64,000 bases of DNA from the NCBI RefSeq assembly GCF_009914755.1, contig NC_060929.1. One strand, written 5' to 3'. The position numbers and the translations under genes are program-made. The stretch is from the human T2T-CHM13v2.0 reference genome, Homo sapiens. Positions within the stretch are counted from its first letter, which is position 1. Every line of letters starts with the position of its first letter. Of this stretch, positions 8,650-12,197 are shown one piece after another. The notes under the pieces are model-generated. The model worked only from the letters and a program-made list of their open reading frames with translations, ran no database searches and was not told where the DNA came from.

Positions 8650-8995
8650 AGACAGTTGAAGTGCCTGTACTGAAAAAGAGGCGTGAGGTGCTCCCTGTGG
8701 ATATAACCACCGCTAAAGATGCATGTGTCAACAACAGTGCTCTCGGGGGAGAAGTTTATCGATTACCGCCTCAGAAAGAGGAGACACAGTCCTGCCCTAA
8801 CAGTTTAGAAGATAACAACTTGCAATTAGAAAAATCAGTTTCTATACACACACCAGTAGTCAGTCTCTCTCCTCACAAAAATCTGCCCGTGGATATGCAG
8901 CTGAAGAAGGAAAAGAAATGTGTGAAACTCATAGGAGTTCCCGCTGACGCTGAGGCCTTAAGTGAAAGAAGTGGAAACACCCCTAACTCTCCCAG
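8650..8995 (+). CDS. SPDL1: SPDL1 penultimate coding exon (ETVEVPVLKKRR...GNTPNSPR)
   Basis: ttctcag acceptor, AG|GTCAGT donor, 346 nt; overlaps ORF 8661..9194. Confidence 0.95.
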
Positions 8996-10479
8996 GTCAG
9001 TGTCCTCTTTTCCTCCAGGCAGCCAGCAGACCTCTCCATCTCTCCTCTCTCGCTGCATGAACTGTGCTGTCTGTTTCTTTATCTACTTTCTTACAATTGC
9101 ATGCAGTATAATTCCTCAGTTTCATCTACCTACCTTCAACTTTTCCAGAACTTTAAGAAAGACTAAACTGATTGCAAAGGGAAAGGACTCTTGAATAAGG
9201 CAATCACATTAAAAAGTTACACGTTTCTGTTTCATGAAAGGGAATATCACAGTTTAACACATCTCTGAATGTTTTATCAGTTTGAATACATGTACTGTTA
9301 TTTTTCTCCTGGTTCAAGCATGGCCATGAAAGAAAAATTAACTTACTTTCTCAAAGGGCTTTCCAGTAGTCTAAGAAATTTCAGCCTTCTAGGAAACTTA
9401 GGTGAATTTTTTATGTCTTTTGAATTGCTTATCCTAGGCATTCAAAAATGGTCTTCAATACTTATTTTGACATTTTTACATATCAAAGCTAACTCATTTT
9501 CATTGTTTCCAAAACTTGAAAGCCTCTAGTTTCTGCATAATTGAGTTTGTGACTAAAAGAAATAGCGTCAGATATGTGTGTCTGAAGGAATTAATGTCCC
9601 AAGGGCTTTGTCTTAATAAAAATAATTGAGGTCAGAAGGTAAGAGAAAGTGAATGGAAGGGAAAGGTAAGTAGCAGTGGCTGAGGCTCGAGTTCTGGATG
9701 TGCGCAGCAGGAGAAGTGAATGAGGAAATTGAAGAAAGTAAAAGAAAGATGAAGGATGTCTGCATGCAGTGGGATTGTTAGAGGCATTTAAAACAAATAT
9801 CTAGACATTCAAAAAGATGTGCCAATAACTAGCCTAGATTATCTCCTATGAAATGAGATGTTGAAGGTGCTACTAGGGCTACCTTAGTCTTAGAGAGTGG
9901 AGACAGATTAATAAGACATTTTACTAATGTGCATTTGAGTAGAGAGAGTAAGACAGCCCTGTTTAAAAGGGCTTCCTTATATGTTTTATCTGATTTCTCT
10001 CCAAGTCTTCAGTGCTACTAAATGTAATACTCAACAGTAAAAGCACTTTAACAATGTTAGCTGCTATTATTATAAGGCATAGTAATTTTATTACTCCCTC
10101 CTTGGATTTTTATAGAATGTTATAACCTCTGAGTCACATAAAATAAAAGCTTACCATTCTTAAGGAAAAAGTAACTTCAAATGAGTATCTGCCACATACC
10201 CATGGTTTCAAAGAGTTCTGAAATGAATCCAGCAGATTATGCCTGTTTATATGTGATGCATTGTATAAACATCCTTGACCAGTGTATATTTCTGGAGGTG
10301 GATTTCCAGAATTGATAAGTGCCAGCCTTGCTATCTGTATTGTCTTCATTCCTTTTTCTGCCTTTTTTTGCTTGATAAAAAATCACTTAAGCAAATGTAT
10401 GTGGCTAATTGACTCAAGTAGCACGTTGGAAACTTTTTGTCTTGTTCGTTAAACAAAAAATAAAATACCACAAAACATT

Positions 10480-10499
10480 TGTGTGTGTGTGTGTGTGTG
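10480..10499. repeat. (TG)10 microsatellite
   Basis: Read directly. Confidence 0.9.
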
Positions 10500-10945
10500 A
10501 GTCCATCTGCTAACTTAAAATGTTTCCGACTCTTTGTTTTCTGCCTGTTTAACTTAGATACACAATCCTAAGATAATTTTGGAACAATAAATATGGCTTT
10601 TATTGGGAACTTCACTATTGCATGCTTTACAAAACTAATTGGTGTTCTTGTTACCGAGAATCTTTACAGGCCTTTAAGAATCTCTCTACTGTTTATCTTT
10701 TCTTTATTCTACTAGTTGAAACTCAATTTTTTAATATGAAACAAATAGACATCTATTCATGCAGCCCAAGATTCCATGTTATTTTTGTCTTGCCTTTTGT
10801 ATGTCATGTTAACATTAAAATATTGCTGTAACATTTCAGTTTTTGTGTTAGGTGTGCTTATCATGATAGGTGCCCTGTCATATTTTCTTTAATTTAGGCC
10901 TTGCCATGACTTTTTAAAGATATTCTTTAGACTTAAAAAATAATT

Positions 10946-11251
<306 letters not shown>

Positions 11252-11431
11252 CTATTGATATAAAAAGACTTTTAGACAGCCAGTGACTTAATATTCTTAC
11301 AGTATTAGAGTCAACTATATTTTTTTTCCTTGAATACCATGCCTTATTGGAGGCCCATTATACTGGGGGTTTGTTTCTTCAATCCTTCATAACCACATTT
11401 GAATTCAGAGTGGATGCTTTAATGCCTGTAG

Positions 11432-11579
11432 GTTAGCTGCTGAATCAAAGCTTCAAACAGAAGTTAAAGAAGGAAAAGAAACTTCAAGCAAATTGGAAAA
11501 AGAAACTTGTAAGAAATCACACCCTATTCTATATGTGTCTTCTAAATCTACTCCAGAGACCCAGTGCCCTCAACAGTAA
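11432..11579 (+). CDS. SPDL1: SPDL1 last coding exon ending ...STPETQCPQQ-stop (CaaX-type farnesylation signal at 11565-11576)
   Basis: ctgtag acceptor, frame fits the preceding phase-2 donor, TAA at 11577-11579; CPQQ is the known Spindly farnesylation site. Confidence 0.96.
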
Positions 11580-11797
11580 AGACTTTTCTTTAATAAGAGT
11601 ACGGTGCCACTTGCCTCAAAAGTTACTATGGTGCTTAAGATTGTCTTGATCTGACATATATCACCTTCTGGGTTATTTACTCATTGTGCCAGGACCTGGC
11701 ATTTTCATGTGCCTTTGACCAAGTGTTCAGAATTTGCTTGACTCTAACCTGGAGAGCTTCTTAAGTGATGCCCCTTCATGGAGCTTCTATGACAGTG

Positions 11798-11803
11798 AAT
11801 AAA
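11798..11803 (+). terminator. Proximal AATAAA polyadenylation signal in SPDL1 3'UTR
   Basis: Canonical hexamer about 220 nt after the stop, followed by T/GT-rich sequence. Confidence 0.5.
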
Positions 11804-12122
11804 CTATTAATTGAAGGAAAATGTTATAATTAATGTATCTATTTGCTGCATTGTATATGGATTAAATGATAAAAAACAAGTAATCTACCCTCAGAGCCAT
11901 GTATTTGAGAATGCTTCAATCATATTTTCCTATGTACTTTTTTTTATAAACTTAGTTTTAGACTATGTTGTAAAAATGGGAAGGTTGTAAACTATGTTGT
12001 AAAAATAGGAAATGTGGCTTAAAATATATACATTATATTGTTTCAGGATTTTGTCAGTGTTTAAAGAACCAATGTTCATCTTTGTATTTATATACATGAT
12101 TTAAATTTTGTCTAAAATTTTA

Positions 12123-12128
12123 AATAAA
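12123..12128 (+). terminator. Distal AATAAA polyadenylation signal, likely SPDL1 3' end
   Basis: Canonical hexamer at the end of AU-rich unique sequence, just before repeats start. Confidence 0.7.
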
Positions 12129-12197
12129 ACTGCAGTGATTTATCCTTAAATTTCTTACTCTCTATAGGTAACAGGATGTTATCAAAAGGGAGTAAAA

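What the first reader, a model, noticed from the sequence alone, without database searches (positions are those of the whole stretch)
8996..9240. Intronic-polyA Spindly isoform that would swap the farnesyl CaaX for a tail-anchor-like transmembrane C-terminus
Seen: the penultimate exon frame stays open for 65 more codons past the AG|GTCAGT donor, to TGA at 9192-9194. An ATTAAA follows at 9208-9213. The added peptide has a Ser/Pro/Gln linker, about 20 uncharged hydrophobic residues (CAVCFFIYFLTIACSIIPQF), and a basic end (RTLRKTKLIAKGKDS). The competing last-exon acceptor (gatgctttaatgcctgtag) has a poor pyrimidine tract. Established: Spindly needs CPQQ farnesylation to bind RZZ at kinetochores, and tail-anchored proteins use a C-terminal TM helix flanked by basic residues. 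Inference: a roughly 622-aa isoform (using recalled 605-aa numbering) would keep the dynein-dynactin adaptor region, lose kinetochore targeting, and insert in ER or mitochondrial membrane, turning a mitotic adaptor into an organelle adaptor. A long isoform of this size may already be annotated, so novelty must be checked. T-rich introns also give hydrophobic peptides by chance.
Basis: partly seen in the sequence, partly recalled or inferred. Interest (0 to 1): 0.85.

Follow-up and report, generated by a model that had tools for sequence, protein, structure and literature searches.

The report
Known lipid-droplet long Spindly isoform
The open frame running past SPDL1 exon 11 is real, but it is the already annotated and published 622-residue long Spindly isoform, which ties the dynein adaptor to the ER and lipid droplets instead of kinetochores.

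Summary
The exon 11 frame stays open for 65 codons past AG|GTCAGT to TGA 9192-9194, and ATTAAA lies at 9208-9213. The tail holds a 17-20-residue hydrophobic helix followed by a basic end. The canonical last exon ends in CPQQ.

It is not new. It is SPDL1-L, listed as RefSeq NP_001316568.1 "protein Spindly isoform a". It was described in chicken in 2023 (Pan et al., seen only as a citation) and in human in 2026 (Su et al., PMC12970171). That paper reports 622 aa made by polyadenylation in intron 11. Residues 558-622 target the ER and, after oleate, lipid droplets. The isoform clusters droplets at the MTOC through dynein.

My own checks agree. Five unnamed homologue fragments conserve the tail better than exon 11 itself. 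AlphaFold2 gives one confident helix, aa 573-594.

Three details differ or stay open:
- The destination is lipid droplets, not mitochondria.
- A bilayer-spanning tail-anchor topology is untested and sits badly with transfer onto a monolayer.
- The annotated intronic 3' end is 10479 (AATAAA 10459 plus a TG repeat), not about 9230.

The parts
8650..8995 (+). SPDL1 exon 11, shared by both isoforms (through the first two bases of codon 557)
   Evidence: Hub gene table; translation in frame from 8652
8996..9001 (+). Exon 11 donor GTCAGT. The C at +3 makes codon 558 TCA (Ser). In this phase a consensus A or G at +3 would give TAA or TGA
   Evidence: It is the only one of the 8 donors in the window with C at +3; the 7 others have A
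8997..9191 (+). SPDL1-L-specific coding extension (published 'E11a'), aa 558-622
   Evidence: translation. It matches the published length, the named residues and the immunogen peptide aa 606-622
9042..9167 (+). Published lipid droplet targeting motif (LDTM), aa 573-614
   Evidence: Boundaries from PMC12970171, mapped onto the window by codon arithmetic. 20-30 of 41-42 positions are identical in five homologue fragments
9063..9113 (+). Hydrophobic core, aa 580-596: 17 uncharged residues with a low hydrophobic moment
   Evidence: KD17 = 2.51. (<H> 0.70 and muH 0.29 for the 18-residue window aa 579-596). The AF2 helix aa 573-594 has block-mean pLDDT 84-92
9147..9185 (+). Basic C-terminal cluster, aa 608-620. 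It includes R608, R611, K612 and K614, published as needed for droplet targeting but not for ER targeting
   Evidence: The C-flank aa 597-622 has 6 K/R and 1 D
9192..9194 (+). TGA stop of SPDL1-L
9208..9213 (+). Its use is not shown
10459..10499 (+). AATAAA (10459-10464), the RefSeq alternative transcript end at 10479, and a (TG)10 downstream element (10480-10499). This is the likely main intronic poly(A) site
   Evidence: hub table 'exons of other transcripts 8650-10479'
11413..11431 (+). Weak acceptor of the last exon: 55% pyrimidines at -22..-3, longest run 4
11432..11579 (+). Coding part of exon 12, specific to SPDL1-S. It ends in the CPQQ farnesylation box (11565-11576) and TAA

Best explanation
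The stretch 8997-9194 is the coding extension of SPDL1-L, the 622-aa long isoform of Spindly. The published Table S1 names it RefSeq NP_001316568.1, 'protein Spindly isoform a'.

How the mRNA is made. If the exon 11 donor is not spliced, the transcript is cleaved and polyadenylated inside intron 11, or the intron is simply retained. The best-supported cleavage site is the annotated end at 10479, after AATAAA 10459 and before a TG repeat. Either way the stop at 9192 lies in the terminal exon.

What changes in the protein. The 48 residues that end in the farnesylated CPQQ box are replaced by 65 residues. These hold one uniformly hydrophobic helix (about aa 573-596), a proline-containing break (P597, P602) and a basic cluster.

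Shown by others. The tail alone takes a reporter to the ER and, after lipid loading, to lipid droplets. The hydrophobic residues are needed for both locations, and the basic residues only for droplets. The full protein clusters droplets at the MTOC in a dynein-dependent way.

Inferred here.
- The protein is most likely embedded monotopically, with both ends on the cytosolic side, because it moves onto a monolayer.
- The isoform ratio is probably set by competition between splicing at a weak donor and weak acceptor and the intronic poly(A) site.
- The C at donor position +3 serves both as the Ser558 codon that keeps the frame open and as a departure from the donor consensus.
For: Sequence.
- The frame, stop, signals and CPQQ are as described.

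Identity with the published isoform.
- 622 aa, aa 1-557 shared, and a specific region aa 558-622.
- The immunogen peptide aa 606-622 equals the window translation.
- R576, P597, P602, R608, R611, K612 and K614 all fall on those residue types in the window translation.

Annotation.
- The hub table lists exons 8650-10479 and 8650-12150.
- Table S1 names NP_001316568.1 for human.

Function, from published passages and sections I read.
- ER and droplet localisation, LDTM aa 573-614 and Seipin dependence.
- Mutagenesis of the hydrophobic and basic residues.
- Dynein dependence, and expression in SH-SY5Y cells and brain.

Independent conservation check.
- A phmmer search of 1.84 billion representatives with the 65-aa tail gave 6 hits at E <= 1e-3. 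Five are exon 11 plus tail fragments.
- Tail identity is 45/65, 34/63, 36/65, 27/57 and 26/56. The exon 11 part gives 63/110, 29/110, 26/108, 18/88 and 13/79.
- 16 of 19 invariant alignment columns lie in the 65 tail residues.

Fold and signals.
- AF2 on that alignment gives one confident helix, aa 573-594.
- The hydrophobic core has <H> 0.70-0.75 and muH 0.25-0.29, so it is not amphipathic.
- The donor and acceptor are the least consensus-like among those in the window.
Against: - I could not see any 3'-end reads, so the site of cleavage rests on the RefSeq model and on the paper's statement about PolyASite.
- By the authors' own account the endogenous protein was undetectable by western blot in all tested lines. 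Loss-of-function evidence is a knock-down of both isoforms plus one accidental insertion line.
- The monotopic topology and the splice/poly(A) competition are my inferences. Neither is tested here or in the paper.
- My AF2 model did not recover the second helix that the authors report from AlphaFold 3. Block-mean pLDDT is 52-67 after aa 597.
- The five homologue fragments carry no names, so their taxa are unknown to me.
- One residue number in the paper (F598) does not fit my count (Q598, F599).
Confidence: 0.93

Rival explanations
1. True tail anchor. The helix spans the ER bilayer and the 26-residue basic tail is lumenal. Insertion is post-translational through GET/TRC40 or EMC. SPDL1-L would then be mainly an ER or mitochondrial membrane adaptor.
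For: - There is a single hydrophobic segment 26 residues from the C-terminus: KD17 = 2.51, and a summed apparent free energy of -2.35 kcal/mol on the Hessa scale, whose values I recalled.
- The AF2 helix is 22 residues, long enough to cross a bilayer.
- It has a low hydrophobic moment.
- ER colocalisation with Sec61beta depends on the hydrophobic residues.
- PMC12915902 calls it a transmembrane domain on the basis of InterPro.
Against: - After oleate the protein is almost exclusively on droplets, which have a monolayer and no lumen.
- The transfer is helped by Seipin, as for ACSL3.
- The basic residues after the helix are needed for droplet binding, so they should face the cytosol.
- No passage I read places it on mitochondria.
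- From recalled targeting rules, a basic tail with moderate hydrophobicity would favour mitochondria or peroxisomes rather than the ER.
Confidence: 0.12
2. The proximal ATTAAA at 9208-9213 is the main poly(A) signal, giving a very short 3' UTR with cleavage near 9225-9245.
For: ATTAAA lies 14 bases after the stop, with a T/GT-rich run (GTTTCTGTTTC) shortly downstream.
Against: - The RefSeq alternative exon ends at 10479, 15 bases after the canonical AATAAA at 10459-10464 and directly before (TG)10 (hub table).
- No annotated transcript end near 9230 appears in the hub table.
- The T-rich run starts only about 10 bases after the hexamer.
Confidence: 0.15
3. A non-functional by-product: occasional intron retention that happens to read a T-rich intron as a hydrophobic peptide.
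For: - 4.7% of 65-codon windows in the window's non-exonic DNA are open by chance.
- Endogenous protein was not detectable by western blot.
Against: - The tail is better conserved than the constitutive exon 11 in five homologue fragments.
- The paper lists 185 species, from mammals to one amphibian.
- Only 0.08% of null windows are both open and as hydrophobic, and none is also as basic at the end.
- Published mutagenesis and an endogenous insertion line give phenotypes.
Confidence: 0.02

Closest known systems
SPDL1-L, the lipid-droplet-localised long isoform of Spindly (Su et al., Adv Sci 2026, PMC12970171; chicken: Pan et al., Dev Cell 2023, seen only as a citation)
   Same: It is the same object: same junction, same 65 residues, same 622-aa length, same C-terminal peptide, and the same origin by polyadenylation in intron 11.
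   Different: Nothing differs in the sequence. My additions are the exact window coordinates, the observation about the dual-use donor, and the argument that the main intronic poly(A) site is at 10459-10499.
Canonical Spindly (SPDL1-S, 605 aa, NM_017785.5)
   Same: It shares aa 1-557, including the dynein-dynactin-binding coiled coils. These lie mostly upstream of the stretch I translated.
   Different: It ends in a 48-residue tail with the farnesylated CPQQ box that binds RZZ at kinetochores (for the published statement, for the sequence). SPDL1-L lacks this tail.
Tail-anchored proteins such as Sec61beta and cytochrome b5 (recalled)
   Same: One hydrophobic helix close to the C-terminus, ER localisation, and a cytosolic N-terminal functional domain.
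   Different: Tail anchors span the bilayer with a lumenal end. SPDL1-L moves onto a monolayer and needs its post-helix basic residues for that step.
ER-to-droplet (class I) lipid droplet proteins: ACSL3, GPAT4 'LiveDrop', caveolins, spastin M1
   Same: They are on the ER without lipid loading and on droplets after oleate. Transfer is helped by Seipin. A hydrophobic segment works together with nearby basic residues. Spastin M1 is likewise an isoform-specific droplet form of a microtubule-related protein.
   Different: The typical hairpins have two hydrophobic arms. Here there is one long helix followed by only a short segment after the prolines, and it sits at the extreme C-terminus.
Drosophila Klarsicht lipid-droplet isoform
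   Same: A motor-regulating adaptor carries a droplet-targeting domain that includes conserved C-terminal basic residues (the paper's discussion). That this domain is supplied by an alternative C-terminus is my recollection, not something I read in the paper.
   Different: An unrelated protein with no sequence similarity tested here. The alternative Klar C-terminus is a KASH domain, not a CaaX box (recalled).

Membership tests
SPDL1-L / RefSeq 'protein Spindly isoform a' | Exon 11 is read through into intron 11, sharing aa 1-557 with the canonical protein | tested here: met
   the junction codon is residue 557 by arithmetic from the 605-aa form. Exons 1-3 lie outside the window and were not examined.
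SPDL1-L / RefSeq 'protein Spindly isoform a' | A 65-residue specific tail, 622 aa in total | tested here: met
   65 codons from 8997 to 9191, then TGA. The published length is 622 aa.
SPDL1-L / RefSeq 'protein Spindly isoform a' | The published residues and the immunogen peptide match | tested here: met
   The aa 606-622 peptide is identical. R576, P597, P602, R608, R611, K612 and K614 all fit. The paper's 'F598' is Q598/F599 by my count.
SPDL1-L / RefSeq 'protein Spindly isoform a' | ER and lipid-droplet localisation, and dynein-dependent droplet clustering | not testable with these tools
   Published experiments only.
Tail-anchored membrane proteins | A single hydrophobic helix of about 18-25 residues within about 30-40 residues of the C-terminus | tested here: met
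   Hydrophobic core aa 580-596 with 26 residues after it. AF2 helix aa 573-594.
Tail-anchored membrane proteins | The helix spans the bilayer and the C-terminus is lumenal | not testable with these tools
   The main text of PMC12970171 does not contain the words topology or carbonate. Published transfer to droplets argues against it.
Tail-anchored membrane proteins | Post-translational insertion by GET/TRC40, EMC or a similar pathway | not testable with these tools
   No data seen.
ER-to-droplet (class I) lipid droplet proteins | A membrane-embedded, non-amphipathic hydrophobic motif with a helix break | tested here: inconclusive
   <H> 0.70-0.75 and muH 0.25-0.29. The helix ends before P597 and P602. 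A second hydrophobic arm is short and modelled with low confidence.
ER-to-droplet (class I) lipid droplet proteins | On the ER before lipid loading, on droplets after it, with transfer helped by Seipin | not testable with these tools
   Published.
Intronic-polyadenylation (composite terminal exon) isoforms | A stop codon and poly(A) hexamers inside the intron, downstream of the unused donor | tested here: met
   TGA at 9192; ATTAAA at 9208; AATAAA at 9615, 10142, 10459 and 10586.
Intronic-polyadenylation (composite terminal exon) isoforms | An observed transcript 3' end inside the intron | not testable with these tools
   Only indirect support: the RefSeq exon 8650-10479 in the hub table, and the paper's statement that NCBI and PolyASite data show it.
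Pfam domain families | A match of exon 11 plus tail to any Pfam-A model | tested here: not met
   0 families at E <= 1.

The most novel reading that the evidence does not exclude
Two points that the main text of PMC12970171 does not address, and that I saw addressed in nothing else I read, remain open.

(a) The exon 11 donor may be a conserved dual-use element. In this codon phase a consensus GTRAGT would read TAA or TGA. The C at +3 (Ser558, invariant with R557 and V559 in 6 of 6 aligned sequences) would therefore both keep the frame open and weaken U1 pairing. The ratio of the kinetochore form to the droplet form would then be set by U1 and splicing kinetics against the strong poly(A) site at 10459-10499, for example in post-mitotic neurons.

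(b) A fraction of SPDL1-L could sit in the ER as a genuine bilayer-spanning tail anchor. That would give a dual-topology adaptor that also links the ER to dynein.
Probability: 0.3. Interest if true: 0.35.

Novelty: already known. Interest (0 to 1): 0.1.

Why it matters
The isoform is a clean example of alternative polyadenylation re-addressing a motor adaptor. Exchanging a farnesylated kinetochore-binding tail for a membrane-embedded tail moves dynein recruitment from kinetochores to lipid droplets. That biology has been published for chicken (2023) and human (2026), and the isoform is in RefSeq, so the finding adds no new entity.

Its value here is as a check on the scan. A reader working from raw sequence alone predicted the length, the loss of CaaX, ER targeting and the switch to an organelle adaptor. 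What remains worth testing is the membrane topology, the true 3' end or ends, and how the choice between splicing and intronic polyadenylation is regulated.

Tried and rejected
- My first null model used a wrong threshold (KD19 >= 2.3, while the observed value is 2.16). It gave 20 of 16,408 windows. I replaced it, which uses the observed values.
- A search for 'SPDL1' with 'intronic polyadenylation' found 1 paper. It concerns soluble PD-L1 and is irrelevant.
- The 2023 Developmental Cell paper on chicken SPDL1-L is not held. I know it only from the reference entry and the sentences that cite it.
- A search for 'SPDL1-L' found 4 papers. I read parts of two. The STAR Protocols paper and the colorectal cancer paper I saw only as listings; in the latter the term probably means 'SPDL1-low'.
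- Pfam gave no family for exon 11 plus tail.
- Hit P0006 (E = 1.6e-4, six repeated stretches in an unrelated repetitive protein) was set aside as a hydrophobic-segment match. It is not a homologue and was left out of the alignment.
- Mitochondrial targeting: of the 12 passages shown, those that mention mitochondria do not concern SPDL1-L localisation.
- An amphipathic-helix reading of the hydrophobic segment is rejected on its low hydrophobic moment. The authors leave that possibility open.
- The chance-ORF reading is rejected on conservation.
- I ran no formal splice-site or poly(A)-site scoring and no dedicated TM predictor, because none is on hand. The Kyte-Doolittle, Hessa and Eisenberg scale values in the scripts are recalled.
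- The supplementary figures (the zip files with images) were not viewable. I read only the legends and searched Table S1 for five species names.

Full report
OBSERVATION

- In the frame of SPDL1 exon 11 (8650-8995, codon phase from 8652) the exon ends in AG. The intron starts GTCAGT, so the split codon reads AGG (R).
- The frame then runs 65 further sense codons (8997-9191) to TGA at 9192-9194.
- ATTAAA lies at 9208-9213.
- The added peptide starts Ser/Pro/Gln-rich. It has an uncharged hydrophobic stretch: the best 17-residue Kyte-Doolittle window is aa 580-596, mean 2.51. It ends with 26 residues holding 6 K/R and 1 D.
- The normal last exon (coding 11432-11579) ends in CPQQ-stop.
- Its acceptor has 55% pyrimidines at -22..-3 and a longest pyrimidine run of 4. 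That is the lowest of the 9 acceptors I examined, tied with exon 1947.
- The arithmetic gives 622 aa for the read-through product.

CHANCE

One search examined 114,816 overlapping 65-codon windows from the window's non-exonic DNA on both strands.
- 5,450 (4.7%) are open.
- 93 (0.08%) are open and as hydrophobic as observed.
- None of those also has a net charge of at least +5 in the last 26 residues.

These windows overlap, so the figures describe the background and are not probabilities. Read-through lengths at the eight SPDL1 donors in the window are 24, 3, 26, 2, 15, 0, 9 and 65 codons. An earlier run with a mis-set threshold is superseded.

WHAT IT IS

A full-text search for SPDL1 and isoform led to Su et al., Adv Sci 2026 (PMC12970171). 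I read its outline, sections 1, 2.1, 2.2, 2.6 and 3, term-search passages from the other sections, the supplementary legends, and hits in Table S1.

The paper describes 'SPDL1-L':
- It shares aa 1-557 with the 605-aa form and has a specific region aa 558-622.
- The immunogen peptide given for aa 606-622 is letter for letter the end of the window's translation.
- R576, P597, P602, R608, R611, K612 and K614 all fall on the right residue types in my numbering.
- One number in the paper (F598) does not fit: by my count 598 is Q and 599 is F.
- Table S1 names the human entry NP_001316568.1, 'protein Spindly isoform a'. It also lists gorilla, chimpanzee, orangutan and macaque entries.

The hub's gene table likewise lists transcripts with exons 8650-10479 and 8650-12150. 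The isoform was first described in chicken cone cells (Pan et al., Dev Cell 2023). That paper is not held, and I know it only from citations.

PUBLISHED FUNCTION (not tested by me)

- N-terminally tagged SPDL1-L colocalises with Sec61beta and with droplets. After oleate it is almost exclusively on droplets.
- aa 558-622 alone suffices. The minimal motif is aa 573-614.
- Targeting is reduced in Seipin knock-out cells, as it is for ACSL3.
- Replacing hydrophobic residues abolishes both ER and droplet binding. Replacing the basic residues abolishes droplet binding but not ER binding.
- Over-expression clusters droplets at the MTOC. This requires dynein and the dynein-binding motifs.
- The mRNA is relatively high in SH-SY5Y cells and in brain (GTEx).
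- Endogenous protein was not detectable by western blot. Loss-of-function evidence is a knock-down of both isoforms and one accidental in-frame insertion line.
[quoted passage not shown] It states that zebrafish encodes only the short form (PMC12915902, passages only).

INDEPENDENT CHECKS

A phmmer search of 1.84 billion representative proteins with the 65-residue tail gave 6 proteins at E <= 1e-3 and 3 at E <= 1e-10.
- Five are short unnamed ORFs that each hold an exon-11-like part followed directly by the tail.
- The sixth is an unrelated repetitive protein and was dropped.

In the alignment of the five with the human stretch:
- 16 of 19 invariant columns lie in the 65 tail residues.
- Identity to human is 45/65, 34/63, 36/65, 27/57 and 26/56 in the tail. 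In the exon 11 part it is 63/110, 29/110, 26/108, 18/88 and 13/79.

So the 'intronic' peptide is better conserved than the constitutive exon before it. This agrees with the paper's 185 species: 116 mammals, 47 birds, 21 reptiles and 1 amphibian, with the frame broken in mouse by a tandem repeat. Conservation fades after the basic cluster, which matches the published C-terminal limit of the targeting motif.

Other checks:
- AlphaFold2 on this shallow alignment (mean pLDDT 53.5) gives one confident element, a helix at aa 573-594 (10-residue block means 84 and 92). The rest is disordered. The second helix the authors report from AlphaFold 3 was not recovered.
- The hydrophobic core has a high mean hydrophobicity and a low moment (<H> 0.70-0.75, muH 0.25-0.29; recalled Eisenberg scale). 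It is therefore not an amphipathic helix. The basic end has 11-residue windows with muH 0.5-0.6.
- Pfam has no family for the stretch.

HOW IT MOST LIKELY WORKS

Shown: the alternative 3' end replaces the CaaX tail by a membrane-embedded tail, and the adaptor then moves droplets by dynein.

Inferred, topology:
- Droplets have a monolayer and no lumen.
- The post-helix basic residues are needed for droplet binding.
- Transfer follows the Seipin-assisted ER-to-droplet route.
- The main form should therefore have both ends in the cytosol. A classical tail anchor with a lumenal +5 tail is unlikely as the main form (my estimate about 0.12).
- The main text of PMC12970171 contains no occurrence of topology, carbonate or tail-anchored, and 'protease' appears only for tag removal. 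The question is open.

Inferred, the 3' end:
- The intron holds ATTAAA at 9208 and 10814, and AATAAA at 9615, 10142, 10459 and 10586.
- The annotated alternative end at 10479 lies 15 bases after AATAAA 10459-10464 and directly before (TG)10 at 10480-10499. This is a textbook arrangement.
- I therefore think this is the main site.
- Either site, or full intron retention, gives the same protein. In all three cases the stop is in the terminal exon, so nonsense-mediated decay is not expected.

Inferred, the donor:
- The exon 11 donor is the only one of eight in the window with C at +3. The other seven have A.
- In this codon phase an A or G at +3 would create TAA or TGA. The C therefore keeps the frame open (Ser558) and also departs from the donor consensus.
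- R557, S558 and V559 are invariant in all six aligned sequences. This fits a conserved GTC donor, if the gene structure is the same in those genomes.
- Together with the weak acceptor, this suggests a kinetic competition between splicing and intronic cleavage.
- The main text of PMC12970171 does not contain the words splice or splicing.

COMPARISON AND NOVELTY

The object is identical to published SPDL1-L, so the finding is already known. It works like the ER-to-droplet class of droplet proteins (ACSL3, GPAT4 hairpin, caveolin, spastin M1). In logic it also resembles the droplet-specific C-terminal isoform of Drosophila Klar. It resembles tail-anchored proteins in sequence layout only.

VERDICT

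Interest as a discovery is low. The open points are modest.

Noticed in passing
window 8996-9001: The exon 11 donor GTCAGT is the only one of the 8 SPDL1 donors in the window with C at +3. In this phase a consensus purine there would make a stop codon. The same base therefore opens the long-isoform frame and weakens the donor. Neither 'splice' nor 'splicing' occurs in the main text of PMC12970171.
   Followed up: partly
window 10459-10499: AATAAA, then the RefSeq alternative transcript end at 10479, then a (TG)10 microsatellite. This looks like a strong poly(A) site whose downstream element is a potentially length-polymorphic repeat.
   Followed up: partly
window 10906-11249: A sense-oriented Alu-like element with an A-rich tail lies in intron 11, between the intronic poly(A) site and the weak last-exon acceptor. 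Any effect on splicing of the last exon is unknown.
   Followed up: no
PMC12970171, section 2.6: The paper speaks of a 'deletion of F598'. By the paper's own P597 and P602 numbering and the window translation, residue 598 is Q and 599 is F. This is probably a slip of one.
   Followed up: yes
P0003 (unnamed homologue fragment), residues 210-271: In this homologue the open frame continues about 62 residues beyond the point where the human tail stops. P0004 and P0005 stop just after the basic cluster. The extreme C-terminus is not conserved, whereas the motif up to the basic cluster is.
   Followed up: partly
P0006 (unnamed, 422 aa): An unrelated protein built of about six tandem copies of a roughly 55-residue unit matched the hydrophobic segment at E = 1.6e-4. 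It was judged to be a compositional match.
   Followed up: no
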